A stretch of DNA of 53,115 nt, taken from positions 1 to 53,115 of the forward strand of contig CAYPOY010000001.1 of assembly GCA_964412395.1 (NCBI GenBank), read 5' to 3'. The notes beneath the pieces are model-generated. The model was not told the DNA's origin. It did not search any database and saw only the letters and a list, made by a program, of their open reading frames with translations. The DNA is from an uncultured Anaerolineales bacterium (GTDB taxonomy: Bacteria > Chloroflexota > Anaerolineae > B4-G1). Position 1 is the first letter of the stretch, and every line of letters starts with the position of its first letter. Positions 11,075 to 46,405 of this stretch are shown here, one piece after another. A program made the position numbers and the translations under genes.

Positions 11075-12877
11075 TCAGCGGCCGGAGCGGAGAACGAGCG
11101 GCAGATGGAGTCGCACCGGGGCGACCAGTACCAGGGCGGTAGCCGTGTCCGTCATGCCGTCGGTCTGGGTGAGGGCGACCATGTTCCAAAGGGCAGTGCG
11201 GGATGGTGCGGCGACGGTGACAACGTAAGTTAGCGTTCCCCGTTCTCCCAGCCCCGGGTTGCCGCTCCAGGCCATGCGGTGAGGGGTGTAGGTCAGGCCG
11301 GGGCTACTGGTAAGGGGCGGATTCACGCCGGTCGGCAGTATATCAGTGAGGGTGAGCGCCTGGTCGCTGCCCACTACGGTCAGGGTATAGGTGACCGTCT
11401 CTCCAGGCATCACGGCTAGAGGCGAGGCTGTCTTATCCACCGTGCCCACTGGATCGCCCCAGTGCACTCGCAGGGTGGGGCGACCCTCGGCGTTCCAGTC
11501 GTCGGTTTCAGATGAGGTCAGGTATTTGCTGCTGTGCTGGTCGGCGTCAGAGCCGTAGATTGCCAGGCTCACTGGACGGTCTGCGGCGTAGGCTTCGGCC
11601 ACAGCCTGAGTAGCATCCCAATGATAGGGAGTACCTGGCCAGCCAGGGAAAGAGGTGAGGGGATCAACCCAGGTTGCGGCGACGTTCTCCTGCGCCGGCG
11701 GGGCGTTGTTCCAGTGGGTGGTCACCTCCTCCCACGGATCGGTAATGGTGAAGAGGTGCACCCACGAAGGTTTCGCCTGACCGGGGGTGCCAGCGTTGCC
11801 CCAATGATGAAGGGTCAGGGTGGCAGAGATGATCACCTTACCTGGCGGGATGGCGTCGAGAGAAAAGCGCAGATAGGATTTGTTGAAGCAGGGAAAGTGC
11901 GTTGGGGCGGTTTCGGTACCGACGAAAAGGCTGGTATCGTCACCGTGGTTGATTTCACTGCCTCCTTCGTGACCACCGCTGCATGTCCCACCGCCACCTA
12001 TCCATGTGTCCTCGACCGTGTTATCCTCCGGTGAGGCAGCACGGATTGTCGTCGTGCTTTCTGAGACAGCAAGGGGGGGCTGGTAATCGGCATAGCCAAA
12101 GTGCAGTTCGCTCCAGGTCACAGGACTGTTGGTGTCAAAAGTCTCTGGCCAGTGCTCCGGCGCGACGTGGCCGGCGGGCGGTTCGTCGTCCCGGTCATAG
12201 AGCTGCACGCCCAACCCCCATAGTGTCCCCTCGGGTGGCGGGCCCAAAAGCCCTAACGTCTCCCAGGGGATGGTGAAAATGGCTGTCCAGCCAAAGTCAA
12301 TGCCACACGCGTTGCTGTTGGGGCCGGGGTCGCACGACCACTGCATCGCTTCATAGTCGGTCCACTCGTCTGTCCAGCTAGTGTCCCAACCAGTGCCGGT
12401 GCCACGGGCCTGGCGGTGATATTGGGTTGCATTGTCGTTAGGCCAGTGATGGGCGCCAACCAGGAAGGTGTAATCGTCTGGTTGCGGCGTTGCCGCCCGG
12501 TCGTGGTTGGTATCCAGGTAAATTGCGACGGCATCGTATTGCGTCAGGTCATCGGTAGTGGTTGGGTTCACTTTGTACCAGAGGTAGTAGTCCACGATGG
12601 TGACGCGGGCGCGGAGCGCCTCGGCCATGTAGGCCGCGCGCACGTCAGCGTAATTTTCGCTGGGCACGCCTTGTTCGTTCTTGCCCAACCAAAAGATGGC
12701 AGTTTGTGCCCAGGTCACCTCGTCGGGGAAGTAAGGGATGTTCACGCGACGGGGCGGGTCGGGGGCCTGGGCGTTGGCCGGAGTTGGGAACAGGCACGGC
12801 CTGGTGAGCAGCGAAACCAGCAAACAAATGACCGATCCTGAGTGCCCAACCAGTGGTTGTGATCGGGTTTTGTTCAT
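11075..12877 (-). CDS. Secreted carbohydrate-binding-module-like protein (CBM9/DOMON-like N-terminus, DNRLRE-like beta-sandwich, DUF11-like domain, C-terminal HLPLVLRSGR)
   Basis: ORF track 11075..13009, trimmed to MNKTRSQPLVGHSGSVICLLVSLLTRPCLFPTPANAQA (signal peptide, ATG 12877) because the upstream gene ends at 12898. SYLRFSLDAIPPGKVIISATLTLHHWGN is DNRLRE-like. GETVTYTLTV is DUF11-like. Confidence 0.72.
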   Translation of the reverse strand: MNKTRSQPLVGHSGSVICLLVSLLTRPCLFPTPANAQAPDPPRRVNIPYFPDEVTWAQTAIFWLGKNEQGVPSENYADVRAAYMAEALRARVTIVDYYLWYKVNPTTTDDLTQYDAVAIYLDTNHDRAATPQPDDYTFLVGAHHWPNDNATQYHRQARGTGTGWDTSWTDEWTDYEAMQWSCDPGPNSNACGIDFGWTAIFTIPWETLGLLGPPPEGTLWGLGVQLYDRDDEPPAGHVAPEHWPETFDTNSPVTWSELHFGYADYQPPLAVSESTTTIRAASPEDNTVEDTWIGGGGTCSGGHEGGSEINHGDDTSLFVGTETAPTHFPCFNKSYLRFSLDAIPPGKVIISATLTLHHWGNAGTPGQAKPSWVHLFTITDPWEEVTTHWNNAPPAQENVAATWVDPLTSFPGWPGTPYHWDATQAVAEAYAADRPVSLAIYGSDADQHSSKYLTSSETDDWNAEGRPTLRVHWGDPVGTVDKTASPLAVMPGETVTYTLTVVGSDQALTLTDILPTGVNPPLTSSPGLTYTPHRMAWSGNPGLGERGTLTYVVTVAAPSRTALWNMVALTQTDGMTDTATALVLVAPVRLHLPLVLRSGR

Positions 12878-12897
12878 TGCACCGTTCCTCCACCTTG

Positions 12898-15186
12898 TTA
12901 CTCCCTCATTATCAAAGGCAGATAGACGCGCGTGCCACCAATCATCAGGCTGATATTGGCAGTCTGCGTAAAGCCGCCGCCGGTGGCAGTAGTGGGGATG
13001 GTGTACCACAGGCCGGGCAGGAGCATCGTGCCCGTGTGGCAGTCGGTGACGGTGAGGGTGGTCTGGCCGAGCGGGATGATGGCGGTGGGGGCCAGGCTAA
13101 GGGTCAGGCTGGGCGATGGGCTGGCGGCAACCAAAGTGACGGTAGCGGTGAAGCCGCCAATAGGCTGTACCCCGATGGTGTACGTGGCGATGCCGCCGGG
13201 AGAGATGGCACGGGCGGGTGGAAGAATGGTCAGGGTGAAGCCGTAACCGGGGTACTCAAAGGCCCCGATGTCGGGGGCGGTGCCGATGTAGTCGTCGTTG
13301 ATGCCGGGGATGACGACGCCGGCGTCAATCAGGTCGCTGGTGGAGTCCAGAGTGTAATCGCCGCTCCCCGCGCCGGCGAAGCCGGGTTCGACGTCAAGGC
13401 CGTGGGGCTCCTGTCCGGTCAGCGACTGGAAGGTAGCCAGGTCGCGCATGTGCCGGTTGGAGCCACTGCCCCAGTAGACGAATTCGTCGGGGTTGGTGGT
13501 GTACAGGTCATCGTAGTCAAAATCTATCGGCTGGGTCTCGTTGTAGTTGTTGAGCGCGTAGTCGGTGCCCGACCAGATGTTGTTGCGAGCGTAGATGATC
13601 TCCCACGTTCCTGGCGCTTTGATATAGATGCCGTTGTTGCTGGGCAGGGCAGCGTCGGCGGTGTTGTGGAAGAGGATCATCGGGCCGGATTTATCGTAGC
13701 CGCTGTTGAACTTGAAAGGGCTGCCAGTGTAGTCGTTGTTGCCCACGCCGGTGCGGTAGATGAGGTTGCGGATGACGTAAACCGGACCGGTGTAGACCGG
13801 GGCCAGGGAGATGCCCATCAGCACATCGTGGAAGGTGTTGCCCCATAGGCGCACGTTGCTGCACTGGCCGTCGGTTTCTATTCCGTCGTCTCCGGCGCGG
13901 TAGACCAGGTTCTCGTAAAAGTCGGTCTCGTTGGTCACACCGGCCGTCTCCGATGGGCAAATCCCCAGCCCATCGAAATAGTCGTGGAAGGTGTTGCGGC
14001 GAATGACGTTGCCGCGGCCGGTGGCTGGGTCGTAGAAGCCCACGCCGCCCGTCTCCAGGTCGCTGCCGCCCTTGACTGCGTCCCAGGGCCAGTCGAAGTC
14101 AGTGTCGTAGAACTCGCTTTCCTGGATGACGTTGCGGTGGGAGGCGCGCTTGATGCCGATGCCCAGGTCGTTGACTGCAAAGATACATCCCTGCACCATG
14201 TTGTCGTTGGCGTTGTTGAAATAGATGGCTTTGGCCCAGTTCCCCTGCCCGTAGTGGCGGAAGGTCAGGTTGACGAAGTAGACGTAGTCTTGCTCGACGT
14301 AGAAAGCATTGTTGTAGCGGGAGACGACCACCGTGGCGTTGTTGGGGTCGGCGTCCCCTGCCAGGCGGGCGTAGAGCGCCGTGCCGTCGGCGTAAAAGCC
14401 GGGGATGCCCCAACTCTGGTCTTGCAGGTCGGAGAGACTCTGGTAGGGGTAGAGCCGCTCGCCATTGACCGTGATCAGGTGAGTGTCGGCCACGTTGACG
14501 GTGGTGCGGTAGACACCGCCGCCTTGGGCTGCCCAGGTGAAGGTAGCCTGGTCGGCGCCGTCCAGCACCGCTGTCTCGCCATCGTAGCCCCGGATGACGA
14601 TGGGCGCGCCCGATGTGCCGGAGCGGGGGAGGGAGACCTCTCCCTGGTGGTAGATGCCGTCCCGCAGGACGACCTCATCGCCAGCCTCGGCCTGACTCAA
14701 TCCTTCCTCCAGCGAGCAGGGCGCGGCCTCGCTACACGCCGTCCCGTTGCCGTCAGGGGCGACGTAGTAGGAGTGGTTCGGCGTGGGGATGGCGATTTCG
14801 GCACGGGTGGAGGCAGTGCCCGCCACGGTCACGCCGTGGAGCGATCCGTCGGGGTCGTCGAAGGTGACGCGCACGTCGTAGGCAGTGCCCGGCTCCAGCC
14901 AGAAGAGGCTGCCGACGAAGCGGGTATCAGCGACGCGGGAGAGGGGAAAGCCCTGGCGGTAGGGCACGCTCCCGCTGACGCGGTACTCGACGCTGGCGGT
15001 GGCGTCGCCGTCGGGATCGTCGGAGGTGGTGATGGTGACGATGACGCCCATCGCGTGGAAGGTGCCGTAGAGTTCCAACGAGGCAGCGGCGCGAACGGGA
15101 GATGGAGACGGCGCCAGAAGGCCCATCGGGAGGGCCAAAAGTAGGAGGTTTCGCCGAATTCTCACCGTCTGTCTCCTTTGTCTCAC
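12898..15186 (-). CDS. Secreted right-handed parallel beta-helix (pectate-lyase-fold) protein with C-terminal Ig/DUF11-like domain and YLPLIMRE tail
   Basis: 762 aa. Signal peptide MRQRRQTVRIRRNLLLLALPMGLLAPSPSPVRAAAS. Repeated N/G-rich beta-helix rungs (NNANDNMVQGCIF, NVIQESEFYD, NVIRRNTFHD, NVRLWGNTFHD, YVIRNLIY). The tail is a beta-sandwich domain ending GGTRVYLPLIMRE. Confidence 0.8.
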   Translation of the reverse strand: MRQRRQTVRIRRNLLLLALPMGLLAPSPSPVRAAASLELYGTFHAMGVIVTITTSDDPDGDATASVEYRVSGSVPYRQGFPLSRVADTRFVGSLFWLEPGTAYDVRVTFDDPDGSLHGVTVAGTASTRAEIAIPTPNHSYYVAPDGNGTACSEAAPCSLEEGLSQAEAGDEVVLRDGIYHQGEVSLPRSGTSGAPIVIRGYDGETAVLDGADQATFTWAAQGGGVYRTTVNVADTHLITVNGERLYPYQSLSDLQDQSWGIPGFYADGTALYARLAGDADPNNATVVVSRYNNAFYVEQDYVYFVNLTFRHYGQGNWAKAIYFNNANDNMVQGCIFAVNDLGIGIKRASHRNVIQESEFYDTDFDWPWDAVKGGSDLETGGVGFYDPATGRGNVIRRNTFHDYFDGLGICPSETAGVTNETDFYENLVYRAGDDGIETDGQCSNVRLWGNTFHDVLMGISLAPVYTGPVYVIRNLIYRTGVGNNDYTGSPFKFNSGYDKSGPMILFHNTADAALPSNNGIYIKAPGTWEIIYARNNIWSGTDYALNNYNETQPIDFDYDDLYTTNPDEFVYWGSGSNRHMRDLATFQSLTGQEPHGLDVEPGFAGAGSGDYTLDSTSDLIDAGVVIPGINDDYIGTAPDIGAFEYPGYGFTLTILPPARAISPGGIATYTIGVQPIGGFTATVTLVAASPSPSLTLSLAPTAIIPLGQTTLTVTDCHTGTMLLPGLWYTIPTTATGGGFTQTANISLMIGGTRVYLPLIMRE

Positions 15187-15290
15187 TCCCTACGAATGAG
15201 CGGCAGGTAGACCGGGTAGCCGTTGGCGATGGCCACCGACTGCCGTTGCCACACGTTGCCCAGGCCATCGTCTATTTCTCTATCTCTCCT

Positions 15291-17030
15291 TCAAGGGCCG
15301 TTTCTCAGCACCAGGGGCAGGTAGATGCTATGCCAGTTGGTGCGTACCGTGGCCGTGCGGGTGATGGTCTGGTAGCCCGGCGCGGCGATGACTGCTGTGT
15401 TGGTGATGATTTGGGGGAGGATGACGGTGGCGGTGCCGGAGAGGGTGTAGGTGACGGTGGCGGCGTAGGTGACGGTGATGAGCGGGGTGGGGGTCAGGAC
15501 GCCAGACCAGGTCAGTGTGGGGGCCATCATGGCGTTGATAATGCCGCTCGTGGCGGTCAGGGTCCCAGGCACGTAGACCAACCCATTCTGGATGACGTCA
15601 GTGAGGAGAACGGTTTCATGCAGCGGGCCAGTGTTGTTGCGGATGCCAACGGTGTAGGTAACGCGCTCGCCATAGGAGGCGTATCGGGAAGAAATGGCCT
15701 TGTAGGAGGGGGTGAGGTCAGGGTAATTGGGGGGTAGCATTACTGTGACCGTGGCCGTGCGGGTGATGGTCTGGTAGCCCGGCGCGGCGATGACAGCGCT
15801 GTTGGTGATGACCTGGGGCGCGGTGGCGCTCACGGTGACGGCGTAGGTGACGGTGACGGCAGGGGTGGAGGTCAGGGCGCCGAACCAGTGCAGGGAAGGG
15901 GCGTAGGTATCTGTGACGGTGCCTGCCGTGGCAGTGAGGGTGCCGGGGACGTAGGAGAGACCTGTGGGCACCTCGTCGCTCAGGTAGATGGTGGCGGTGA
16001 GGGGGGCAGCGAGGTCCTGGATAACGACGGTGTAGGTGATGGTCTGGCCGTGCACCGCTGTTTCCGTTGAAGCGGTCTTTTGCGACGTGCTCTCACCACT
16101 GATAAAAGCATTCCATACGCTGTCAATGAAATTGTCCGGCTTGGTGGCAAAAATCTGGGTTGAGTTGGCATTGGCCGTGCTATTGGGATGCGAGTCGCCA
16201 CTGGTGCCGCCGTACTCTTCCTTAAGGCGGTTCGGATGTTCGGCGTGGTCATCGGGGTAAGCCAACACGGCGAACCAGTCAAAGATGGCGACGTTGTTTA
16301 ATCCCGGGTGGGCTGCGTTGTAGCCCGCCCGCCAGTCGTTCTTGAGCCAGTTGTTGAACTCGCGAGCGCGATGGGCCTCGGCATCGTTGGTGGCATCGGA
16401 GGGGGCGTAGTGACGGGGCGGAGCGGTGACGGGGATAAACAGCGTGTCGGGATTCTCGGCAAAGATGTCTTCCAGGGGCTTGTACGTATAGCCACTGCGG
16501 GGGTACGTATGACCCGGACCGTCTGGATGGCGATAGACGGCTTTGTAGTTGGCAGTGGTTTGCGCACTGCTGAAGGGATCTCCTGGCTCAGTGCCATCGC
16601 TGCTGATGTTACTGATCGGGTAGCAACTCTTGAACATGATGATTCTGTTGAAGCCATCGGCACTACCGTGGCTTTTCACACCGTCAAGGTAGTCGTTGAA
16701 CCAAAGGATCCAGTGATTCATGTTTGTGTTGTCGCCCGGTGTGCCTCCCAGCGAGGCTGGCCGTCCGGCGTCGGGTGCCATACTGGTGCCGTAGTAGATG
16801 TCATTGCGTTCGTCAATGTAGTCCTTGGCGAGCAGTGCATCGTGCAGGCTATTGCTGAGCCAGTTATTGCCACAGGAATGGTGAATGAAAACCAGATCGT
16901 CATCGGTGGCGGCAGGGTAAACGTCGCCCTGGGCACTGGCGCCGAACAGCGTGACGGCGCTCACTGTCCCGCTCAACGTCATTAGCAGAACCAGGACGGA
17001 AATCAGTCTGAAGAACCTCTGCGTTTTCAT
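15291..17030 (-). CDS. Secreted protein: unknown N-terminal domain + two DUF11-like repeats + C-terminal IYLPLVLRNGP
   Basis: 579 aa. Signal peptide MKTQRFFRLISVLVLLMTLSGTVSA. Two ~134-aa repeats each end AVIAAPGYQTITRTATV, with a 47-bp perfect nucleotide repeat at 15346..15392 and 15748..15794. Confidence 0.75.
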   Translation of the reverse strand: MKTQRFFRLISVLVLLMTLSGTVSAVTLFGASAQGDVYPAATDDDLVFIHHSCGNNWLSNSLHDALLAKDYIDERNDIYYGTSMAPDAGRPASLGGTPGDNTNMNHWILWFNDYLDGVKSHGSADGFNRIIMFKSCYPISNISSDGTEPGDPFSSAQTTANYKAVYRHPDGPGHTYPRSGYTYKPLEDIFAENPDTLFIPVTAPPRHYAPSDATNDAEAHRAREFNNWLKNDWRAGYNAAHPGLNNVAIFDWFAVLAYPDDHAEHPNRLKEEYGGTSGDSHPNSTANANSTQIFATKPDNFIDSVWNAFISGESTSQKTASTETAVHGQTITYTVVIQDLAAPLTATIYLSDEVPTGLSYVPGTLTATAGTVTDTYAPSLHWFGALTSTPAVTVTYAVTVSATAPQVITNSAVIAAPGYQTITRTATVTVMLPPNYPDLTPSYKAISSRYASYGERVTYTVGIRNNTGPLHETVLLTDVIQNGLVYVPGTLTATSGIINAMMAPTLTWSGVLTPTPLITVTYAATVTYTLSGTATVILPQIITNTAVIAAPGYQTITRTATVRTNWHSIYLPLVLRNGP

Positions 17031-17129: not shown

Positions 17130-18407
17130 TTACTTGCTGGCTAACTTCTCTGCCAGTTCCGCAGGCGTTGCAGCCGTGATGGGCTTGTACTCGACACCGG
17201 GATAGTATTGCTTGTAGAAATCCTCCAAACTCAGAGGGCCGGGCCACTTCTGCGGATTGACCGCGATCACGCACCGCACATCCAGGTCACCGATGCCCGC
17301 GTCGGCGGCGCTGCTGCCGATGGTGTAGTGCTTCTCATCCCACGCGCCCTCCACCACAGCACGCGTCCAGGTGGCATCTGCGTTGGGGGGGAGCAACACA
17401 TAGGTGCGCTTGTACTGAGCGCGGGGATGTCCACGGGGCTTCTCATCCTCGCCACCGGGCTCGCCATACACAAAGGGCTTGGCCGGATCTGCCTGCGTAT
17501 GCATGATCAGTTCCTGGGCCACATCCGTCCCGGCTACGTCGAAATCCGACCAGGGTCGGCCGAAACTGCCCCAGGTGAAGATGGTTGCGCCGATGACGTA
17601 ATCGTCCTTTTGCAGTTCCTTGTCGTACCAGACCAATTGTCGGAAGTAGTAGTCAGCTTTGTTCGGCTCGTTGTCGTGCCTGGCCCAGAAGCCGCCCAGT
17701 TGTCGCCACGTCCCACCCGTTTCCACCCCCGGCGGTTTGGGATTCACCAGCGGATCAATGCCGCACTCGGTGATCACCAGTGGCACGTCACCCAACCCCT
17801 TGGGGATCAAGTGCTGGCGGTAGACCTTACGGTAACGCAGTGTTGTCCAGCCCTCGTCCCCTTGGTCAGCGTCGGGGTCCAGTTGGTACTTCCCCGTCAT
17901 CCACCACATCCAGGGACAACTGTACTCGTGGAGGCCGAGGATGGCCTGATACTGCCTGGTAGCCCGAAGGGCCGGGAAGAAGGCAGGCCAGAGAGCCAGG
18001 TCCGGCGTACCGGTGGCGAAATTCCCAATCACGCACTTTAGCCCCAGGTCGGCCATAAGCCGCATCCGTTCCACCTCGAGCTGGGCGTACCAGCCCATTT
18101 CCTCATCGGTGTTCCATATTGGCTCGTTGTGTCCTTCCCAGTACGTGATGCGGGGATTGGATTGGTACGTTCCCAGTTGGTCCTGGACGAACTGCTGCGC
18201 CGCCTCGAGGGGCGTCTTCCCGCTGGCTTTCTGGAGTTGGGCGTCATAGTCTGCTTGATGCTTGCGGCCAATCACCAGAATATCCTCCGGGATATTCTGC
18301 GCCAGTCCCCAGTCGCCCACTAGTTTGATCACTGCCGGGCCAGCCTGGATGTAATCACCCAGATTCGCGGCAGCCCGCAGGACGTGGACACCCAATTTAG
18401 TAGGCAT
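17130..18407 (-). CDS. Clan GH-A (TIM-barrel) glycoside hydrolase-like protein, no signal peptide
   Basis: WEGHNEP (acid/base NEP motif) and PLVITECGID (nucleophile TE-G motif). Start trimmed to ATG 18407 (MPTKLGVHVL), preceded by AAGGAGGAG. ORF track 17130..18461. Confidence 0.72.
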   Translation of the reverse strand: MPTKLGVHVLRAAANLGDYIQAGPAVIKLVGDWGLAQNIPEDILVIGRKHQADYDAQLQKASGKTPLEAAQQFVQDQLGTYQSNPRITYWEGHNEPIWNTDEEMGWYAQLEVERMRLMADLGLKCVIGNFATGTPDLALWPAFFPALRATRQYQAILGLHEYSCPWMWWMTGKYQLDPDADQGDEGWTTLRYRKVYRQHLIPKGLGDVPLVITECGIDPLVNPKPPGVETGGTWRQLGGFWARHDNEPNKADYYFRQLVWYDKELQKDDYVIGATIFTWGSFGRPWSDFDVAGTDVAQELIMHTQADPAKPFVYGEPGGEDEKPRGHPRAQYKRTYVLLPPNADATWTRAVVEGAWDEKHYTIGSSAADAGIGDLDVRCVIAVNPQKWPGPLSLEDFYKQYYPGVEYKPITAATPAELAEKLASK

Positions 18408-18518
18408 TGTGCTCCTCCTTTTTTCTGGCTGTGGACAGTTGGCGGTTGGTTTCTGAGCCAACCGCTCATTGCTAACTGCTGACCTGGAGTGTACTACGAA
18501 ATGGCTTTGGTGGCAAGG

Positions 18519-22636: not shown

Positions 22637-22672
22637 GGCTGTGTCAGCGGGATTGCATCTGACATGATCTCG

Positions 22673-22681
22673 TGGTATAAT
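22673..22681 (+). promoter_or_regulatory. Extended -10 promoter element (TGGTATAAT) for the toxin-antitoxin pair
   Basis: TGGTATAAT lies 37 nt upstream of the antitoxin ATG. The same 13-mer CGTGGTATAATGT recurs at 23324..23336. Confidence 0.5.
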
Positions 22682-22717
22682 GTAAAAAAGGAAAACACTT
22701 CTTCATGGAGGTGTCAG

Positions 22718-22999
22718 ATGGAGCAACTGATCAAAGTGACAAGAGGTGGACAGGTGACGATACCCGCTGCTCTGCGCCGCGAGGCAGGTATTGAGATTGG
22801 CGATTATCTGGAAGCGCGGCTGGAGGAGGATAGGCTGGTGCTCCTGCCAAAGCAAGTCATAGACAAGAGCCAGGCTTACTTCTGGACAGAAGCCTGGCAA
22901 GAGGGTGAGCGCGAGGCGGAGGAAGACCTGAGAGCGGGCCGTGTGAAGCGGTTCAAGATGTTAGCAGACCTCATCGCCGACTTGGACGCGGAGGAATAG
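22718..22999 (+). CDS. AbrB/MazE/SpoVT-family antitoxin
   Basis: MEQLIKVTRGGQVTIPAALRREAGIEIGDYLEARLEEDRLVLLP is a SpoVT-AbrB swapped-hairpin motif. GGAGGTG RBS. The stop is 1 nt before the toxin GTG. Confidence 0.8.
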   Translation: MEQLIKVTRGGQVTIPAALRREAGIEIGDYLEARLEEDRLVLLPKQVIDKSQAYFWTEAWQEGEREAEEDLRAGRVKRFKMLADLIADLDAEE

Positions 23000-35488: not shown

Positions 35489-38299
35489 ATGAAGAAGCTA
35501 CTGACAATCTGTGCAGCAGCAGGTCTGATCCTGGCGTTTAGCGGCCTTGCCATTGCAGGTGTCCCTGGTGATCTGTTCAACGACGGGGATCGCACAACCG
35601 TCAAGGTCCGTGCAGACGATGCAGACGATTACGCCTACGTCTCGGCGACGTTGTATCCTAACCTTAAGGCAACCGTAGCGGATGGGTGGAAGTCGGTCAG
35701 TCTCCCGTTTGCCGGAAACAACAAGGACAATACGCCCTTCGATGTGGTCCGGGACCGTATGGAGACGATGCGGTTCTACTTCAATTGCAAGGACAGTAGA
35801 TACAACGATCTCGACGATCCGCATATCCAGATCGACAACGTCAAGTTGACTAAAACCGGTCTGTCCGATCTGGTGATTGACAACTTCGACGACGGCAACC
35901 TGAGGTGGTCCTACCAGCAGCACCCCGCACCTTCGAGCCCACCTGGCGGCGTCAGCGTTTCCCTCGCCGATGTCACGGGCAAGGGTAAAGTCCTCGACAT
36001 TCACGTCACCGATATGGATGCCCGGGACTTTGGCCCCAATTGGGAGATGAATTACATCGACATCTTCACCTGCTTGACCAACGACGCCAGTGACAGCTTC
36101 ATCTACGGCGACGACTGGTCGGCCTACGACAACCTCGAATTCGAGTGGCAGGTCCTGGACCCGGGCACGAGAAGGGACTACATTGACCTCTACGTCAGGA
36201 CCGACGTCCTTCGCACGGTGTACGTGGACGACGACTACACGTCCAGCACTCCAGGCTGGGACGTCACTCACTTCAACACGATCCAGGGTGGCATCAATGC
36301 GGTGGGGACCGGTGGGACCGTCTATGTGCTGCCAGGGACCTACCCCGAGAACCTGACCATCCCGAAGTCGCTTACCTTGTCCTGTGCCAGTGGAGGTGGC
36401 ACGACGGTTTACCCGGCAACCTCGGATGTCCAAGGCTCAGCCCCTACTAAGTGCGAGGGCCCCAGTTTCACTGGCTCCCAGATGGTGGTAGTCCAAGCGG
36501 ACGACGTGACCATCGAGCACTGTATCTTCGATGGGAACAACCCGAACATTAGCAGCGGGGAGACAGTGAACGGGGTGGACATTGATGCCCGCAATGGGAT
36601 CATTGTGGACTACCCTTCAGGCGACTATAGCAACCTGGAGGTCCGCTATTGCACCGTTAAGAACATCTTCCTCAGGGCAATCTACCCCGCGGCAGACGGC
36701 TCGGGACACCATATCCACCACAACACGATAGACAATGCGGATGGCTGTGATGGCCAATCAACGGGGGTGATGTTCTACGGGGCGAGTGGAACTGTCAACG
36801 ACAACACCATATCTCGCTGCAAGATCGGGATCATGTACCATCAGAGTTCCGACGGGGACATCATTGAGAACACGGTGTCCGACAGCAAATGTGGCATCGC
36901 GGTAAACGGTAACGATGCCCCAACCAAAGTCTGCTACAACACCGTCACCAACGCTGGCGAGGATGGAGCCATCCAGGCGGTGAGCGTGGACGAGTCGGTA
37001 GACATCTGCTGCAACGAAGTCACCGGAGACAGCGACGGGATCATCGTCTACGGTGGCCACGACGAGTCCATAGAAATCTTCGACAACAAGCTCACCGGCG
37101 ATGGTAACCATTCGGGACTTCTGATCACCACGGACTTGACCCCTTGGGGTTCCGAGGATTCCACCGGCGTGGATGCCTGGGGCAACACGATTACCAACTA
37201 TGACAAAGGTGTTGAGGTAGATAGTCCTATAGTTGGCAATACTGTCACCGCCATGGTAAAGGGCAACAACATCTCTGGCAATGTCACCTGGGGCGCGGAG
37301 AATAGCGATGCCGGCTCTACACTGGACGCCACCAACAACTGGTGGGGAAGCCCCACTGGGCCAAAGCATGCCACTGGCAATCCTGGCGGAACGGGTGATA
37401 ATGTCTCGGACAACGTCCTCTACAATCCCTGGGCGCAGGCGCTGGTGGTGCTGGATCCCTGGCGCACGGAGCTACACGAGTGCGAGGAGGTGATGTTGGA
37501 CGTCAAGGTCAGGGCCAACAATATGTACGGAATCCAGTTCATCGTCCACTTCGATCCGACCAACCTCCAGGTCACCGATGCGGGCTGGACTCCTGATCCG
37601 TTCTACCCGGATCAGATAATATGGGATGCAGTGGTGGACAACGTCGGCGGCACGGTGAAATTCGCCGCCACCCAAAGAGACGACATGCATTCCGACCCAG
37701 TCACTCTGATGTGGGATGAGGTGGCCTACGTGACCTTCCACTGCATTGGGCCGAGCTACGATCACATCTGGCTCGAGGAGCTGATGCTGGGCGAGAAGGA
37801 AGAAGGTATGGAGATCCCATCAACCTACACCTCGGCCTGCATCAAGAACATCCCACCCGAGGCCGGGAGCATCACCGGGCAGGTGGATCTCCAGGGCCGC
37901 ACGGATGAGAAGGGGGCCATCATCACCACAAGCCCCGGTGGCTACTGGTCAGCCAGCGACTCGGCTGGCAACTACACCATCTCGAACGTCCCACCCGGGA
38001 CGTACACCGTGAACCCCGAGATGACCCTGTACCTCGACAGCTCGAAGAGCGGTGTGGTGGTCAACACAGGTGCGACGACGACGCTGAGCCAGGTCAGGTT
38101 GCTCGGTGGCGACTGCAACGATAGTGAGCATATCGAGATCCACGATGCGACCATCATCGGCTCCGCCTTTGGCTCGGTGCCCACCGACTCCAACTGGGAT
38201 CCAAGGGCCGACATCAACGCCGATGGGAAGGTGAACATCCTTGACGCGGTGATCCTGGGCGGCAACTGGGATAAGTGCAGCCCGGTTTCCTGGCCATAA
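35489..38299 (+). CDS. Secreted multidomain protein: CBM-like N-terminus, parallel beta-helix (PbH1 repeats), cohesin-like module, CarboxypepD_reg-like domain, C-terminal dockerin
   Basis: Signal peptide MKKLLTICAAAGLILAFSGLAIAG, with AAGGAGGA 8 nt upstream. Beta-helix rungs (HCIFDGNN, VRYCTVKNIF, HHNTIDNA, NDNTISRC, IENTVSDS, CYNTVTNA). Cohesin-like LDVKVRANNMYGIQFIVHFDPTNLQVTD. GSITGQVDLQGRTDEKGAII...NYTISNVPPGTYTV. Dockerin loops DCNDSEHIEIHD and DINADGKVNILD. Confidence 0.85.
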   Translation: MKKLLTICAAAGLILAFSGLAIAGVPGDLFNDGDRTTVKVRADDADDYAYVSATLYPNLKATVADGWKSVSLPFAGNNKDNTPFDVVRDRMETMRFYFNCKDSRYNDLDDPHIQIDNVKLTKTGLSDLVIDNFDDGNLRWSYQQHPAPSSPPGGVSVSLADVTGKGKVLDIHVTDMDARDFGPNWEMNYIDIFTCLTNDASDSFIYGDDWSAYDNLEFEWQVLDPGTRRDYIDLYVRTDVLRTVYVDDDYTSSTPGWDVTHFNTIQGGINAVGTGGTVYVLPGTYPENLTIPKSLTLSCASGGGTTVYPATSDVQGSAPTKCEGPSFTGSQMVVVQADDVTIEHCIFDGNNPNISSGETVNGVDIDARNGIIVDYPSGDYSNLEVRYCTVKNIFLRAIYPAADGSGHHIHHNTIDNADGCDGQSTGVMFYGASGTVNDNTISRCKIGIMYHQSSDGDIIENTVSDSKCGIAVNGNDAPTKVCYNTVTNAGEDGAIQAVSVDESVDICCNEVTGDSDGIIVYGGHDESIEIFDNKLTGDGNHSGLLITTDLTPWGSEDSTGVDAWGNTITNYDKGVEVDSPIVGNTVTAMVKGNNISGNVTWGAENSDAGSTLDATNNWWGSPTGPKHATGNPGGTGDNVSDNVLYNPWAQALVVLDPWRTELHECEEVMLDVKVRANNMYGIQFIVHFDPTNLQVTDAGWTPDPFYPDQIIWDAVVDNVGGTVKFAATQRDDMHSDPVTLMWDEVAYVTFHCIGPSYDHIWLEELMLGEKEEGMEIPSTYTSACIKNIPPEAGSITGQVDLQGRTDEKGAIITTSPGGYWSASDSAGNYTISNVPPGTYTVNPEMTLYLDSSKSGVVVNTGATTTLSQVRLLGGDCNDSEHIEIHDATIIGSAFGSVPTDSNWDPRADINADGKVNILDAVILGGNWDKCSPVSWP

Positions 38300-38356
38300 G
38301 GCTGACCAGGCATCGGTTCATCAAGGCTGACGTTGGCTTGACCACAGAAAGAAGGA

Positions 38357-38393
38357 GGGAGGTGGTGCCTCAGGAGATGGGGCACCACCTCCC
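38357..38393 (+). terminator. Strong 13-bp hairpin downstream of the dockerin gene (no clear U-tract)
   Basis: gggaggtggtgcc (38357..38369) pairs with ggcaccacctccc (38381..38393). Confidence 0.4.
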
Positions 38394-38748: not shown

Positions 38749-39855
38749 ATGAAACTGTGGGGTTCGATTGACCTGAGAAAGCAGCCATGCCGGACGATCC
38801 TCCGGTTGGTCGCGATACAAATGAGCATAGCTCTGCTGGTTTGCCTGCCTGGACTGGGACAGGCGACCACGGTCTGGGCGCAAGAGGGAGTGACGGTACG
38901 GCCAGATCCCTCGTCGCTGGAGGTAGAGGCAGGAAGCACAGGCGCGGTGGACATCCTGGTGGAGAATGTGACCGATCTCTATGGGATCGAGTTTGAAATC
39001 ACCTTCGACCAGGCGCTGCTGGAGGTGGTAGATGCCGACCCCGTGAGAGAAGGCATCCAGATTCAGCCAGGCGACTTGCTCAGCCCAGACTGGCTTCTCG
39101 ACAACACCGTTGACAATGACAACGGGACCGTAGCTTATGCCCTCTGCCAACTGAACCCCAGCCCGCCGCAGAGTGGGGACGGGGTCCTAGCCATCATCAC
39201 CTGGCGCAGCAAGGCCGTGGGGACAAGCCCCATTCACTTCGCCTACGTGCTGCTGGGTGCGCCGGGAGGCGTGGAGATCCCAGCCAGTGCCGGGGATGGC
39301 CAGATCATCGTCGTATCTGCTCAAGCCCCACCAGCCGACACCCTGACGCCTACGGCTGCGCCCACGGGGACCCCCACCCCTGTGCCACCAACGTCCGCAC
39401 CGACTTCCACCCCGATACCACCAATCTCCACACCGACCTTCACCCCGATCCCACCAACGTCCACACCGCCAGCGACGGCCGTTCCGGAGGCCACGGAGAC
39501 GCCAGCGGCCACGCCGACCTCAACTCCGCCCAACACGACGACACCTACGGGCGTGCCCACGTCTGTGTCTACGCCGACCTCCACCCCGCTGCCGACAGCA
39601 ACGCCTGTCGTGCAAGGGACAGAGCCTTCCTCGCCCACAGCGACCGCAGTTCAGCCCACAAGCACTGCTGTATCAGCGGCAGCCGCCCATCCTGTGCCTA
39701 CCCAGACGGAAGCCTCGCCAATGCCCTTAACCCCCACACCGGTCTCACCTTCGGGCTCGTCAGGGATTTCGACAGGTAGCCTGACGTACGTCGCCCTCGC
39801 TTGCCTGGTTGTGGCAGCGCTCGGTGCATGGGTATTATGGAGACGAATGCGGTAA
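38749..39855 (+). CDS. Membrane-anchored cohesin-domain protein (signal peptide, cohesin, long Pro/Thr linker, C-terminal TM helix)
   Basis: Cohesin block VDILVENVTDLYGIEFEITFDQALLEVVDADP...NGTVAYALCQLNP...GVLAIITWRSKAVGTSPIHF. About 170 aa of PT-rich linker. C-terminus LTYVALACLVVAALGAWVLWRRMR. Confidence 0.8.
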   Translation: MKLWGSIDLRKQPCRTILRLVAIQMSIALLVCLPGLGQATTVWAQEGVTVRPDPSSLEVEAGSTGAVDILVENVTDLYGIEFEITFDQALLEVVDADPVREGIQIQPGDLLSPDWLLDNTVDNDNGTVAYALCQLNPSPPQSGDGVLAIITWRSKAVGTSPIHFAYVLLGAPGGVEIPASAGDGQIIVVSAQAPPADTLTPTAAPTGTPTPVPPTSAPTSTPIPPISTPTFTPIPPTSTPPATAVPEATETPAATPTSTPPNTTTPTGVPTSVSTPTSTPLPTATPVVQGTEPSSPTATAVQPTSTAVSAAAAHPVPTQTEASPMPLTPTPVSPSGSSGISTGSLTYVALACLVVAALGAWVLWRRMR

Positions 39856-39879
39856 CCCTGGATCCAGGAGAGGTGGGCA

Positions 39880-41094
39880 ATGAACGCAATGAAAAGGATA
39901 AAAAGGATGAAAAGTATCCGCAATAGCCTGGATACCCTCCGGCAACGACTGTGCTGGACGGGCCTGCGGGTGGCAGCATGGCTGACAATCGCCTGCTTAC
40001 TGCTGTTTTTCTTCGGCAACAGTGGGCTGGCAACGATAGGCTGGGCCGACGGATCCACAACGGTGAGCATCGCCCCTGCCTCACAGGAGATCTTCCTGGG
40101 AGGCACTGACGTCACCGATGTCCTGGTCGAGGACGTGACCGATCTCTACGGGTTTGAATTTGAGATTGCCTTTGACCCGGCGATACTGGAGGTGGTGGAT
40201 GCCGACCCTGGAAAGGCAGGGGTACAGATCCAGCCGGGCGACTTTCTCAGCCCGGACTGGCTTCTCGAAAACTCGGTTGACAATGACAACGGGAGCATAG
40301 CTTATGCCCTTTGCCAACTGAACCCCAGCCCGCCGCAGAGTGGGGATGGTGTCCTGGCTAGCATCACCTGGCGTGGCAAGATTATGGGGACAAGCCCAAT
40401 CACCTTGACCTATGTGCAGTTGGGTGCGCCGCGTGGCGTACCAATTCCGGCCAGCACCCAGGATGGTGAGATTACGGTGGGAGAACCCTCTCCCGGGCCC
40501 ACCATCGCCAGCCTCAGCCCGGGCTCGGCCACGGCGGGCAGCCCGGCCTTCGCCCTCACGGTCAACGGCACCAACTTCGTCAGCGGCTCGACCGTGCGCT
40601 GGGACGCCGCAGCCCGGACGACCACCTTCATCAGCAGCACACAACTCACCGCTGCCATCACCGCTGCCGACATCGCCGCCGCGGGCACGATCAGCGTCAC
40701 GGCGGTCAATCCCGCGCCTGGCGGTGGCACGTCCAATGCTCTGCTCTTCACAATCGCCAACCCCGCACCGACCATCACCAGCCTCAGCCCCATCTCGGCC
40801 ACGGTGGGCGGCCCAGCCTTCACCCTTACCGTCAACGGCAGCAACTTCGTCAGCGGCTCAACCGTGCAGTGGGACGGCTCGGCCCGGGCAACGACGTTTG
40901 TCAGTAACACGCAACTCACCGCCGCCATCACCGCCGCCGACGTCATCACGGCAGGCGTGGTCAGTGTCACGGTGGCCGACCTGCTTGGGCCTGGCGGTGG
41001 CACGTCCAACGCGCTGCCCTTCGAGATTACCGAGCTGGGTCCGGAACCCCCAGCCAGCCTTGTTTACCTGCCGCTCATTCTCAACAATCACTAG
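39880..41094 (+). CDS. Cohesin-domain protein with two IPT/TIG-like repeats and C-terminal LVYLPLILNNH
   Basis: The cohesin block matches 38749..39855 at 89 of 116 aligned residues (hand count). Two repeats: PTI(A/T)SLSP.SATAG.PAF.LTVNG.NFVSGSTV.WD...RTTTF.S.TQLTAAITAAD. N-terminal signal anchor. Confidence 0.8.
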   Translation: MNAMKRIKRMKSIRNSLDTLRQRLCWTGLRVAAWLTIACLLLFFFGNSGLATIGWADGSTTVSIAPASQEIFLGGTDVTDVLVEDVTDLYGFEFEIAFDPAILEVVDADPGKAGVQIQPGDFLSPDWLLENSVDNDNGSIAYALCQLNPSPPQSGDGVLASITWRGKIMGTSPITLTYVQLGAPRGVPIPASTQDGEITVGEPSPGPTIASLSPGSATAGSPAFALTVNGTNFVSGSTVRWDAAARTTTFISSTQLTAAITAADIAAAGTISVTAVNPAPGGGTSNALLFTIANPAPTITSLSPISATVGGPAFTLTVNGSNFVSGSTVQWDGSARATTFVSNTQLTAAITAADVITAGVVSVTVADLLGPGGGTSNALPFEITELGPEPPASLVYLPLILNNH

Positions 41095-41112
41095 GACGTG
41101 GTCAGGAGTCTT

Positions 41113-41730
41113 ATGGGCAGAGCGGAGAACTCCAGAGTGCCACCGGTTCAGTATACACGGACGTTCGTCCGCATCGTGGGGCTTGTCTTGCTCATCGAGC
41201 AACTTCTCATCGGCCTCCCATCTACTCACACGCTGGCCTGCACCAAGAACGCGCCATCCGAGTCAGGCGCTATCACCGGGAAGGTGGACCTCCAGGGCCG
41301 CACCGATGAGCAGGGCGCCATCGTCTTCATCAGCCCCGGTGGCACCGGTGGCTACTTGTCAGTCAGCGACTCCAGCGGCAACTACACCATCTCGAACGTC
41401 CCGCCCGGTACGTACGACGTAAGCATTGAGATGACACTGTACCTGGGTGCCTCGAAGAGTGATGTGGTGGTCAGTGCGGGTGAGACCACGACGCTCAGCC
41501 CGGTCAGGTTGCTCGGTGGCGACTGCAACGACGATGACATTGTCAGCACCCTGGATGCGACCATCATCGGCGCCACCTTCGGCTCGGCGCCCGGCGACGC
41601 CAACTGGGATCCACTGGCCGACGTCAACGACGATGGGAAGGTGAACATCCTTGACGCGGCGCTCTTGGGCCAGAACTGGAACAAGTCCAGCCCGGTTCCC
41701 TGGCCATGGGGCACCATCTGCTTCCCTTGA
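41113..41730 (+). CDS. Small CarboxypepD_reg + dockerin protein (duplicate of the C-terminal module of 35489..38299)
   Basis: GAITGKVDLQGRTDEQGAIVF...NYTISNVPPGTYDV. Dockerin loops DCNDDDIVSTLD and DVNDDGKVNILD. The ORF track starts at GTG 41098. ATG 41113 has CAGGAG upstream. It is unclear whether the N-terminal ~45 aa are a real signal/anchor. Confidence 0.65.
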   Translation: MGRAENSRVPPVQYTRTFVRIVGLVLLIEQLLIGLPSTHTLACTKNAPSESGAITGKVDLQGRTDEQGAIVFISPGGTGGYLSVSDSSGNYTISNVPPGTYDVSIEMTLYLGASKSDVVVSAGETTTLSPVRLLGGDCNDDDIVSTLDATIIGATFGSAPGDANWDPLADVNDDGKVNILDAALLGQNWNKSSPVPWPWGTICFP

Positions 41731-44117: not shown

Positions 44118-44129
44118 CCTCAGTGCACA

Positions 44130-46400: not shown

Positions 46401-46405
46401 ACGTC

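What the first reader, a model, noticed from the sequence alone, without database searches (positions are those of the whole stretch)
11075..17030. Shared extreme C-terminal motif YLPL[IV][LM][RN] on four signal-peptide proteins: candidate unnamed sorting or anchoring signal
Four secreted proteins end in almost the same octapeptide, within 0-3 residues of the stop codon.
- 11075..12877 ends ...VRLHLPLVLRSGR.
- 12898..15186 ends ...TRVYLPLIMRE.
- 15291..17030 ends ...HSIYLPLVLRNGP.
- 39880..41094, 23 kb away in the cohesin locus, ends ...SLVYLPLILNNH.

All four have N-terminal signal peptides. In at least three, the motif directly follows a DUF11/Ig-like beta-sandwich. The motif is too short to be a TM helix and lacks the hydrophobic-helix-plus-basic-tail layout of LPXTG, PEP-CTERM, GlyGly-CTERM and similar signals. 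I do not recognise it as any named C-terminal sorting domain. No sortase, exosortase or rhombosortase-like gene is visible in this window.
Basis: seen in the sequence. Interest (0 to 1): 0.7.

Follow-up and report, generated by a model that had tools for sequence, protein, structure and literature searches.

The report
YLP-box sorting tail, already catalogued
Four secreted proteins on this Anaerolineae-type contig end in the same seven-residue 'YLP box', a Chloroflexota-specific tail that NCBI already catalogues as a putative surface-sorting motif, although how it works is still unknown.

Summary
Four long ORFs end in [YH]LPL[IV][LM][RN], 2-3 residues before the stop. About 1e-5 such C-termini are expected by chance. 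The four copies use different synonymous codons, so selection acts on the peptide.

The motif is not unnamed. NCBIfam holds two models, NF050076 'sort_motif_YLP' and NF053834 'ultrashort_CTERM', both called 'YLP-box putative sorting motif-containing protein'. Three of the four tails match them.

In a scan of 185,579 species genomes for YLPLVLR, 33 of 45 Chloroflexota matches lay at the C-terminus of a long ORF. Only 1 of 73 matches in other phyla did (p = 4e-18).

- Carriers almost all have signal peptides and span 51 Pfam families.
- The box follows the last Ig-like domain and is disordered in AlphaFold2.
- Two orthologues of one carrier have a dockerin in its place.
- There is no transmembrane helix.
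- Some boxes are internal or tandem, and 0-26 residues can follow the box.

My best reading is a short linear motif that retains exported proteins at the cell surface. I favour non-covalent docking over sortase-like cleavage, but only weakly. No processing enzyme or receptor was found. The motif is already known; its mechanism is open.

The parts
11075..12877 (-). Secreted protein 1 (600 aa): signal peptide, CBM96/DNRLRE domain, DUF11 domain, then the variant box HLPLVLR
   Evidence: ORF and translation. Pfam CBM96 and DUF11 480-578. NCBIfam DNRLRE_dom. RBS GGAGGA lies upstream of the ATG at 12877.
11087..11107 (-). YLP-type box HLPLVLR, followed by SGR and the stop
   Evidence: No NCBIfam hit. 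H at position 1 is seen in orthologues of a Y-box family.
12898..15186 (-). Secreted protein 2 (755-762 aa): Pel9A-like right-handed beta-helix enzyme, C-terminal Ig-like domain, then the box YLPLIMR
   Evidence: the Pel9A-like_beta_helix annotation is on orthologue P0208.
12904..12924 (-). YLP box YLPLIMR, followed by E and the stop
   Evidence: As an isolated tail it scores 18.3 bits on NF050076 (cut-off 15) and 16.3 bits on NF053834 (cut-off 10). In the full-length protein it scores 13.1 bits.
15291..17030 (-). Secreted protein 3 (579 aa): signal peptide, unannotated N-terminal domain, two DUF11 repeats, then the box YLPLVLR
15303..15323 (-). YLP box YLPLVLR, followed by NGP and the stop
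   Evidence: NF050076 16.5 bits and NF053834 15.0 bits.
39880..41094 (+). Secreted protein 4 (404 aa): cohesin domain, two TIG/choice-of-anchor-Z repeats, Pro-rich linker, then the box YLPLILN
   Evidence: (NF058597, 223 bits).
41065..41085 (+). YLP box YLPLILN, followed by NH and the stop. It lies in a segment (aa 388-404) with pLDDT below 50 and no secondary structure.
   Evidence: NF053834 11.8 bits (cut-off 10) and NF050076 12.7 bits (below the cut-off of 15). AlphaFold2 model.
38749..39855 (+). Context: a paralogous cohesin protein that ends in a PT-rich linker, a TM helix and RRMR. It is the same kind of scaffold with a conventional membrane anchor in place of the YLP box.
35489..38299 (+). 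Context: a dockerin-bearing beta-helix enzyme, a likely client of the cohesin scaffolds
   Evidence: Pfam Beta_helix, CarboxypepD_reg and Dockerin_1.
41098..41730 (+). Context: a small dockerin-bearing protein
   Evidence: Pfam CarboxypepD_reg and Dockerin_1.

Best explanation
The tails are copies of the YLP box. Its consensus is [R/aromatic]-[VIL]-[YWFH]-L-P-[LV]-[VI]-[LVM]-[RKN]-x(0-4)-COOH. It is a modular short linear motif specific to Chloroflexota (Anaerolineae, Thermoflexia, Chloroflexia).

The motif is appended after the last Ig-like domain of proteins exported by the Sec pathway: enzymes, adhesins and a cohesin scaffold.

Proposed mechanism (inferred, not shown): after export, the unstructured hydrophobic strand is recognised as a linear peptide by a still unidentified component of the multilayered Chloroflexota envelope. 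It holds the protein at the cell surface non-covalently, probably by adding an edge beta-strand to the partner. The box would then do the job that SLH domains, LPXTG signals or dockerins do elsewhere. A free C-terminus at a fixed distance is not needed.

Shown: the motif exists, is peptide-selected, is strongly enriched at C-termini only in Chloroflexota, sits on signal-peptide proteins of many families, is not part of the preceding fold, and has no TM segment.

Inferred: surface retention, and docking rather than cleavage.
For: Curated label: NCBIfam NF050076 and NF053834, 'YLP-box putative sorting motif'.

Taxon-specific C-terminal enrichment: 33 of 45 YLPLVLR matches in Chloroflexota genomes lie within 8 residues of the stop of an ORF of at least 100 codons. 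Only 1 of 73 matches in other phyla does (Fisher p = 4e-18).

Signal peptides: 27 of 28 complete carriers have a signal-peptide-like N-terminus, against 59 of 122 other long ORFs in the same loci (p = 9e-7).

Modularity: 36 carriers span 51 Pfam families, including Beta_helix, DUF11, PKD, Peptidase_C25/M14/M28, GH123 and CARDB.

Multiple copies per genome: 4 in this 53-kb contig, 3 in the 8-kb locus L009, and 2 each in L011, L024 and L114. In L039, L084 and L094 a second box-like C-terminal tail lies near a match that is internal (L039, L094) or probably chance (L084).

Not part of the fold: see the DUF11 repeat comparison, homologues that end at the last TIG strand, and the AlphaFold2 tail with pLDDT below 50.

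Anchor swapping: in orthologues of protein 2 that are 72-73% identical, the 'Ig-like domain + box' is replaced by another module, which in P0242 is a dockerin by Pfam and in P0233 ends in a dockerin-like sequence with no Pfam hit. In the window, one cohesin paralogue has a TM anchor and the other has a YLP box.

Favouring docking over cleavage:
- About 9 internal boxes with typical flanks lie at domain boundaries of secreted proteins.
- A tandem double box is found in five distinct sequences.
- The tail after the box varies from 0 to 7 residues, and up to 26 in some orthologues.
- There is no TM helix to hold a substrate at a membrane enzyme.
- In a beta-strand, the side chains at positions -1, 2, 4 and 6 (V/I, L, L, L) would form one hydrophobic face, with Pro3 blocking one edge (my inference).

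Envelope context: a cultured relative in the class Caldilineae has a proteinaceous layer and an outermost filament-wide layer outside the wall. These are possible docking targets (PMC13319060).
Against: No receptor or binding partner was identified. No gene family recurs next to YLP genes in about 48 loci.

Every well-studied family of small C-terminal sorting signals in prokaryotes is cleaved by a dedicated enzyme (10.1101/2023.06.07.544157). Prior expectation therefore favours processing.

A pure docking peptide would not obviously need to be C-terminal in about 75% of cases.

The internal boxes could be relics of gene fusions rather than functional sites.

Surface localisation itself is untested. 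The label in NCBIfam is only 'putative'.
Confidence: 0.38

Rival explanations
1. Processed sorting signal. A dedicated Chloroflexota peptidase or transpeptidase (sortase-like, PorU/C25-like or S41/PDZ-like) recognises the box, cleaves within or after it, and transfers the protein to a wall or envelope acceptor, as happens for LPXTG, PEP-CTERM or the T9SS C-terminal domain.
For: All characterised small C-terminal sorting domains are cleaved. The box shares the 'LP' core with LPXTG. The basic residue at position 7 is conserved (R 43/44; R or K), followed by a short dispensable tail. The strong preference for the C-terminus fits. Three of 36 carriers are themselves Peptidase_C25, the family of the T9SS sortase PorU. 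An S41/PDZ peptidase lies 1.9 kb from one carrier, and a homologue lies at the edge of another locus.
Against: There is no TM helix or Arg cluster, so criteria 4 and 5 of the tripartite design are not met. Tandem and internal boxes exist, and the tail length varies from 0 to 26 residues. In the protein 4 family the basic residue is replaced by Asn. No candidate enzyme recurs in the neighbourhoods, and none was found among the 21 further window ORFs scanned.
Confidence: 0.3
2. Maturation or cleavage site without anchoring. The box marks a boundary where an extracellular protease trims a tail or separates domains (a propeptide-type site), or it acts as a stability or degradation tag.
For: Internal boxes sit exactly at domain boundaries. 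Some lie between a short N-terminal module and the main enzyme (L014, L038) or before a terminal jelly-roll-like domain (L023, L051).
Against: Most boxes are followed by only 0-3 residues, so cleavage would remove almost nothing. The swap with a dockerin and the pairing with a TM-anchored paralogue point to localisation instead.
Confidence: 0.1
3. Direct lipid anchor. The 7-8 hydrophobic residues plus Arg dip into the outer leaflet of the cytoplasmic membrane as the last segment to leave SecYEG.
For: The segment is hydrophobic, is followed by a basic residue, and is the last part to emerge from the translocon. The linker to the last domain is short.
Against: The segment is far too short for a helix. 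It has a central invariant Pro. Internal boxes are followed by hundreds of residues of exported protein. The sequence is much more strongly conserved than simple hydrophobicity would need.
Confidence: 0.07
4. Not a signal at all. The box is the last strand of the preceding Ig-like or DUF11 domain, or a translated DNA repeat, or a chance or paralogy effect.
For: It always follows a beta-sandwich domain. Three of the four genes are tandem neighbours.
Against: The internal DUF11 repeat ends without a box. Homologues end at the last strand. AlphaFold2 shows a coil with pLDDT below 50. Synonymous codons differ. Carriers span 51 unrelated Pfam families. The chance expectation is about 1e-5.
Confidence: 0.02

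Closest known systems
NCBIfam NF050076 'sort_motif_YLP' and NF053834 'ultrashort_CTERM' (YLP-box putative sorting motif-containing protein)
   Same: It is the same motif at the same extreme C-terminal position. Tails of proteins 2 and 3 pass both cut-offs and protein 4 passes NF053834.
   Different: Protein 1 (HLPLVLR) is not detected. In full-length scans the scores fall below the cut-off or are filtered out. The models carry no mechanism, and I found no publication.
Tripartite C-terminal sorting domains: LPXTG/sortase, PEP-CTERM/exosortase, PGF-CTERM/archaeosortase, GlyGly-CTERM/rhombosortase, MYXO-CTERM/myxosortase
   Same: The box is C-terminal and occurs many times per genome. It has at least 3 near-invariant signature residues. 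It sits on signal-peptide proteins of unrelated architecture. It has an 'LP' core like LPXTG.
   Different: There is no transmembrane helix and no Arg cluster. The whole signal is 7-9 residues. It is sometimes internal or tandem. No cognate enzyme is known.
Dockerin-cohesin and SLH-type non-covalent surface attachment
   Same: It is a C-terminal module on secreted enzymes. Two orthologues of protein 2 carry a different C-terminal module in its place, a Pfam dockerin in P0242. It occupies the 'anchoring' end of a cohesin scaffold in this window.
   Different: It is a 7-residue linear peptide, not a folded 60-aa (dockerin) or 55-aa (SLH) domain. Its receptor is unknown.
T9SS C-terminal domain (Por_Secre_tail) with the PorU sortase
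   Same: The cargo repertoire is comparable: beta-helix enzymes, PKD, C25 peptidases and CARDB.
   Different: The T9SS domain is a folded Ig-like domain of 70-100 aa in diderm Bacteroidota. Here a 7-residue tail lies outside the last Ig-like domain.
Ultrashort terminal signals in other systems: CAAX box, PTS1 (SKL), KDEL, and the OMP C-terminal beta-signal or YxF-COOH recognised by PDZ domains
   Same: They are a precedent for a signal of under 10 residues at the very C-terminus.
   Different: Those need a fixed distance to the carboxylate. Here 0-7 (up to 26) residues follow the box. There is no Cys and no terminal aromatic residue. The systems are eukaryotic or diderm.

Membership tests
YLP-box putative sorting motif (NCBIfam NF050076 / NF053834) | Score at or above the curated cut-off (15 bits for NF050076, 10 bits for NF053834) | tested here: met
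   As isolated tails: protein 2 scores 18.3/16.3, protein 3 scores 16.5/15.0, and protein 4 scores 12.7 (fails NF050076) and 11.8 (passes NF053834). Protein 1 has no hit. Full-length protein 2 scores 13.1, below 15. So the feature is met for three proteins and not met for the His variant.
YLP-box putative sorting motif (NCBIfam NF050076 / NF053834) | Location at the extreme C-terminus | tested here: met
   1-3 residues follow the box in all four proteins. In 44 tails from Chloroflexota loci, 0-7 residues follow, with a mode of 2-3.
YLP-box putative sorting motif (NCBIfam NF050076 / NF053834) | Host lineage is Chloroflexota | tested here: met
   An identical protein 4, with the same flanking cohesin and dockerin genes, lies on contig DAOUDT010000241.1 of MAG GCA_034430995.1. 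Orthologues at 65-75% identity are named Anaerolineae or Thermoflexales bacterium. In the genome scan, C-terminal boxes are confined to Chloroflexota.
Tripartite C-terminal sorting domain (criteria listed in 10.1101/2023.06.07.544157) | [quoted passage not shown] | tested here: met
   (Y 41/44, L 43/44, P 44/44 in a pattern-selected sample). L-P is near-invariant and position 1 is aromatic in an independent orthologue set.
Tripartite C-terminal sorting domain (criteria listed in 10.1101/2023.06.07.544157) | 4) a hydrophobic segment long enough for a transmembrane helix | tested here: not met
   Only 6-8 hydrophobic residues with a central Pro. The protein ends 0-7 residues later.
Tripartite C-terminal sorting domain (criteria listed in 10.1101/2023.06.07.544157) | 5) a cluster of 2-5 basic residues at the end | tested here: not met
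   There is a single R or K at box position 7, replaced by N in the protein 4 family.
Tripartite C-terminal sorting domain (criteria listed in 10.1101/2023.06.07.544157) | 6) an N-terminal signal peptide on most members, and members otherwise unrelated | tested here: met
   27 of 28 have a signal-peptide-like N-terminus by a crude hydrophobicity rule. Carriers span 51 Pfam families.
Tripartite C-terminal sorting domain (criteria listed in 10.1101/2023.06.07.544157) | A cognate processing enzyme that co-occurs with the signal | not testable with these tools
   This needs whole-genome phylogenetic profiling. None was found among the window ORFs scanned or in the neighbourhoods.
LPXTG / sortase substrates | LPXTG-type pentapeptide followed by a TM helix and a basic tail; sortase gene present | tested here: not met
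   The sequence is LPL[VI][LM], not LPXTG. There is no TM helix. No NCBIfam or Pfam sortase-signal hit on the four proteins. No sortase among the window ORFs scanned.
Last beta-strand of the DUF11/TIG Ig-like domain | The motif lies inside the domain boundaries and is present in domain copies that are not C-terminal | tested here: not met
   The first DUF11 repeat of protein 3 ends ...TRTATVTV and continues with a linker, without a box. TIG homologues end at ...TFTI[NHK]. In AlphaFold2 the last strand is 379-384 and the box region is coil with pLDDT below 50.

The most novel reading that the evidence does not exclude
The YLP box is not a cleaved sorting signal. It is a position-independent docking peptide of 7-9 residues. 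It tethers dozens of exported enzymes, adhesins and even cohesin scaffolds non-covalently to a Chloroflexota-specific envelope receptor, for example a subunit of the proteinaceous layer or sheath with an open beta-sheet edge or groove. That would make it a peptide-based counterpart of dockerin-cohesin or SLH attachment, and the first prokaryotic surface-retention signal that needs neither a TM segment nor a processing enzyme.
Probability: 0.3. Interest if true: 0.65.

Novelty: already known. Interest (0 to 1): 0.35.

Why it matters
Chloroflexota are abundant in wastewater, sediments and hot springs. How their single-membrane, multilayered filaments display enzymes and adhesins is essentially unknown.

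The YLP box marks a large and easily recognised set of probable surface proteins. It is the only catalogued prokaryotic 'sorting' tail that lacks a membrane-spanning segment. Working out its partner would reveal either a new sorting enzyme or a new kind of docking system. It would also give a minimal tag for surface display in these organisms.

For this window specifically, the result is ordinary: four more members of a motif that NCBI already annotates.

Tried and rejected
1. DNA-level repeat: rejected, because the codons differ.

2. Last strand of the preceding domain: rejected.

3. Candidate enzyme in the window: Pfam or NCBIfam scans of 21 further ORFs, about half of those predicted, found DUF624/MusI, GH3, cohesin/dockerin, kinases, an ABC-F ATPase, CoaE, MazE and a beta-lactamase-like protein. 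They found no sortase, exosortase, rhomboid or CPBP protease.

4. Recurrent neighbour search: an all-against-all BLAST of ORFs from about 48 Chloroflexota loci found no enzyme family shared by more than 4 loci, apart from the carriers themselves. The S41/PDZ peptidase near P0100 recurs only once.

5. The look-up of encoding contigs with my own start-codon choices for proteins 2 and 3 returned nothing, because the gene-called starts differ.

Counts are therefore a sample biased towards GC-rich genomes.

7. Literature: four searches for the motif or for a Chloroflexota sorting system found nothing relevant.

8. PDB: no solved chain contains the box.

9. The listing of cluster members gave no names or taxa.

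10. The TM-anchored cohesin paralogue only weakly resembles the GVDTG and NPXTG sortase signals, below their cut-offs.

Full report
OBSERVATION

- 11075-12877(-) ends ...VRLHLPLVLRSGR*.
- 12898-15186(-) ends ...TRVYLPLIMRE*.
- 15291-17030(-) ends ...HSIYLPLVLRNGP*.
- 39880-41094(+) ends ...SLVYLPLILNNH*.

A six-frame scan for LPL[IVLM][LMIV] gives only six matches in the 53,115 bases. Four of them are these C-termini, each 2-4 residues from a stop at the end of an ORF of 404-756 upstream codons. With the window's own amino-acid composition, about 1.4e-5 such C-terminal matches are expected. The four copies use different synonymous codons for Pro, Leu, Val/Ile and Arg. The conservation is therefore in the peptide and not in a DNA element such as a terminator or repeat.

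IT ALREADY HAS A NAME

NCBIfam release 20.0 contains two tiny models. NF050076.1 'sort_motif_YLP' has 11 positions and a cut-off of 15 bits. NF053834.1 'ultrashort_CTERM' has 10 positions and a cut-off of 10 bits. Both carry the product name 'YLP-box putative sorting motif-containing protein'.

Full-length protein 2 hits NF050076 at residues 753-761 with 13.1 bits. Given as isolated tails, the scores are:
- Protein 2: 18.3 and 16.3 bits.
- Protein 3: 16.5 and 15.0 bits.
- Protein 4: 12.7 and 11.8 bits.
- Protein 1, the His variant: no hit.

Protein 4 also carries the NCBIfam 'choice-of-anchor Z' repeat (223 bits). By its name, that family is defined by being found with alternative C-terminal anchors. 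I found no paper on the motif.

ORIGIN OF THE WINDOW

The window is a whole contig. An identical protein 4, with its neighbouring cohesin and dockerin genes, lies on contig DAOUDT010000241.1 of NCBI MAG GCA_034430995.1. Orthologues of protein 2 at 65-75% identity are labelled Anaerolineae bacterium or Thermoflexales bacterium.

ENRICHMENT AND TAXONOMIC RANGE

I scanned one genome per species (185,579 species) for TAYCTNCCNCTNGTNCTNCG, which encodes YLPLVLR. The pattern says nothing about position within a gene.

- Chloroflexota genomes (Anaerolineae/Anaerolineales, Thermoflexia/Thermoflexales, Chloroflexia and unclassified): 45 matches. Of these, 33 lie within 8 residues of the stop of an ORF of at least 100 codons.
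- All other phyla: 73 matches. Only 1 does, and it sits on a 1.9-kb MAG contig that is probably mis-binned.
- The rest are internal or in non-coding frames. Fisher p = 4e-18.

Chloroflexota contribute more than a third of all matches. Several MAGs are hit on two or three separate contigs.

Neighbouring genes in those loci often carry further boxes that the DNA pattern did not select. L009 has three in a row, and L011 and L114 have two each. In L039, L084 and L094 a further box-like C-terminal tail lies near a match that is itself internal or probably chance. This mirrors the three tandem carriers in the window.

In 44 tails:
- Position -1 is V, I or L in 40.
- Position -2 is R in 15.
- Position +1 is N in 17.
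- The number of residues after the box is 0-7, with a mode of 2-3.

WHO CARRIES IT

Of 28 complete carrier ORFs, 27 have a signal-peptide-like N-terminus. This compares with 59 of 122 other long ORFs in the same loci, using a crude hydrophobicity rule (p = 9e-7).

Thirty-six carriers match 51 different Pfam families. These include right-handed beta-helix, DUF11, PKD, Peptidase_C25, M14, M28, GH123, CARDB and SdrD_B. That is the repertoire usually seen on LPXTG, PEP-CTERM or T9SS cargo.

The window's carriers are:
- a CBM96/DNRLRE + DUF11 protein;
- a Pel9A-like beta-helix enzyme;
- a protein with two DUF11 repeats;
- a cohesin + TIG scaffold.

NOT PART OF THE PRECEDING DOMAIN

Protein 3 has two near-identical DUF11 repeats. 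The first ends ...APGYQTITRTATVTV and continues MLPPNYPDL. The second ends ...APGYQTITRTATV and continues RTNWHSIYLPLVLRNGP.

Among 120 relatives of protein 4, many end exactly at the last TIG strand (...GGGTSNxxTFTI[NHK]) or carry the Acidobacterial TIGR03437-type C-terminus. The Chloroflexota-like relatives add a short linker and a box: VYLPLILNN, IYLPLILR, YIYLPAILR, RVMLPLITR, RVYLPLARR.

An AlphaFold2 model of protein 4, built with 13 orthologues, places the last strand at 379-384. Residues 388-404 are left as coil with pLDDT below 50.

ANCHOR SWAPPING

Of 120 orthologues of protein 2 (65-82% identity), 89 match a strict box pattern. Most of the other 31 keep a recognisable variant: [YWFH]-L-P-[LVAIST]-x-x-[RK]. 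So L-P and the aromatic residue are the core, and His at position 1, as in protein 1, is an accepted variant.

In P0233 and P0242 (72-73% identical), the segment after the conserved APDIGA[FY]E, that is the Ig-like domain plus the box, is replaced. In P0242 the replacement is a dockerin by Pfam (Dockerin_1); P0233 ends in a similar dockerin-like sequence but gave no Pfam dockerin hit. In P0239 it is replaced by a GH5 domain.

In the window itself, two tandem cohesin paralogues differ in their ends. One has a PT-rich linker, a TM helix and RRMR. The other has the YLP box. They sit next to two dockerin-bearing proteins. In cellulosome-type systems (established knowledge), the scaffold's far end is where an SLH domain or a sortase signal attaches it to the cell. 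Here the YLP box occupies that place.

WHAT DOES NOT FIT A CLASSICAL SORTING SIGNAL

Haft's criteria for small C-terminal sorting domains (10.1101/2023.06.07.544157) are met in these respects: C-terminal position, multiplicity, invariant signature residues, signal peptides, and unrelated cargo. Two are not met. There is no hydrophobic stretch long enough for a TM helix, and there is no Arg cluster.

The box is also not strictly terminal.
- About nine Chloroflexota matches with typical flanks (V or I at -1 in 8 of 9) are internal or are followed by 26-62 further residues; most sit at domain boundaries of secreted proteins. Examples are L023 and L051 (followed by a 160-220-aa jelly-roll-like domain), L039 and L066 (followed by about 600 residues), and L014 and L038 (shortly after the signal peptide).
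- One protein 4 orthologue cluster, with five distinct sequences, has two boxes nine residues apart.
- Some protein 2 orthologues carry 17-26 residues after the box.

Recognition therefore cannot depend on a fixed distance to the carboxylate. That argues against PDZ-type reading of the C-terminus.

SEARCH FOR A PARTNER

None of the 21 further window ORFs scanned encodes a sortase, exosortase, rhomboid or CPBP protease; about 20 predicted ORFs were not scanned. All-against-all BLAST of ORFs from about 48 Chloroflexota loci found no recurrent non-cargo neighbour.

Two weak leads remain.
- An S41/PDZ/Tricorn_C1 peptidase lies 1.9 kb from carrier P0100, with a homologue at the edge of L069.
- Three of 36 carriers are C25 peptidases, the family of the T9SS sortase PorU.

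Neither is more than a lead.

MECHANISM

Shown: this is a peptide-selected, Chloroflexota-specific, modular tail on exported proteins. It lies outside the last fold and has no TM segment.

Inferred: it retains proteins at the cell surface.

I favour non-covalent docking of the unstructured strand to an envelope component (0.38). My reasons are the internal and tandem boxes, the variable tail length, the dockerin swap and the missing TM helix. In a beta-strand, positions -1, 2, 4 and 6 would form one hydrophobic face, and Pro3 would block hydrogen bonding on one edge. That suits edge-strand addition, but this is my inference.

A cultured Caldilineae relative has a proteinaceous layer and an outer filament-wide layer outside the wall. 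Either could hold such a receptor (PMC13319060).

The main rival is a cleaved, enzyme-processed signal (0.30). Precedent favours it. Minor rivals are a maturation site (0.10), a lipid-dipping anchor (0.07), and an artefact or structural strand (0.02).

VERDICT

The interpretation as a sorting or anchoring signal is reasonable and matches an existing curated label. The claim that it is unnamed is wrong. The feature is already known, and these are four more members, one of them a His variant that the models miss.

What remains open, and moderately interesting, is how a 7-residue signal without a TM segment works. The internal and tandem boxes and the dockerin swap seen here bear on that question.

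Noticed in passing
window 35489-41730 (+): A compact cohesin-dockerin locus in a Chloroflexota contig. It holds two dockerin proteins (35489-38299, 41098-41730) and two tandem cohesin paralogues with different anchors: 38749-39855 has a PT-rich linker, TM helix and RRMR, and 39880-41094 has a YLP box.
   Followed up: partly
L014, L023, L038, L039, L051, L066 (positions): YLP boxes with typical flanks occur inside secreted Chloroflexota proteins, at domain boundaries or just after the signal peptide. The motif is therefore not obligatorily C-terminal.
   Followed up: partly
P0097, P0125-P0128 (orthologues of window 39880-41094): Five distinct sequences carry two tandem boxes nine residues apart: ...VYVYLPLVSKNAGSRLHTYLPLILNND.
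   Followed up: partly
P0233, P0242, P0239 (orthologues of window 12898-15186): The C-terminal 'Ig-like domain + YLP box' is replaced by another module: a Pfam dockerin in P0242, a dockerin-like end with no Pfam hit in P0233, and a GH5 cellulase domain in P0239. This is anchor or module swapping on an otherwise conserved Pel9A-like enzyme.
   Followed up: yes
L005:1169-1648, L077:7074-7643, L080:1265-1984, L107:1769-2134: A family of small Gly-rich secreted proteins, about 100 aa when mature, with the pattern GGGYDLTWxTVDGGG...GGFW and a YLP box. In three of the four loci (L077, L080, L107) it lies next to a large Gly-rich protein; L005 is a 1.6-kb locus that ends at this gene. In L107 the C-terminus of the large protein looks to me like a tail-fibre or S74-chaperone domain. 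That call is from reading the sequence only; the Pfam and NCBIfam scans, run on the L077 homologue, gave nothing.
   Followed up: no
L122:13773-15236 and the edge of L069: An S41 peptidase with PDZ and Tricorn_C1 domains lies 1.9 kb downstream of YLP carrier P0100, and a homologue lies near another carrier. This is a weak lead for a tail-recognising protease and is not recurrent elsewhere.
   Followed up: partly
L084:2279-3061: A polytopic membrane ORF, probably the Lgt-like member seen, ends ...GFAMYLPLVLRLH. It has Met instead of V/I/L at position -1 and is probably a chance match rather than a true box.
   Followed up: no
window 17130-18461 (-): A 443-aa ORF lies directly upstream of the three tandem YLP genes on the same strand, with no Pfam or NCBIfam hit. 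Its function is unknown and it may be co-transcribed with them.
   Followed up: no
window 43383-49293 (-) and 22664-22999 (+): An FHA, VWA, DnaJ, PP2C and Ser/Thr-kinase-PQQ signalling cluster, annotated on the identical MAG contig L001, and a MazE-type antitoxin gene. Both are unrelated to the finding.
   Followed up: no
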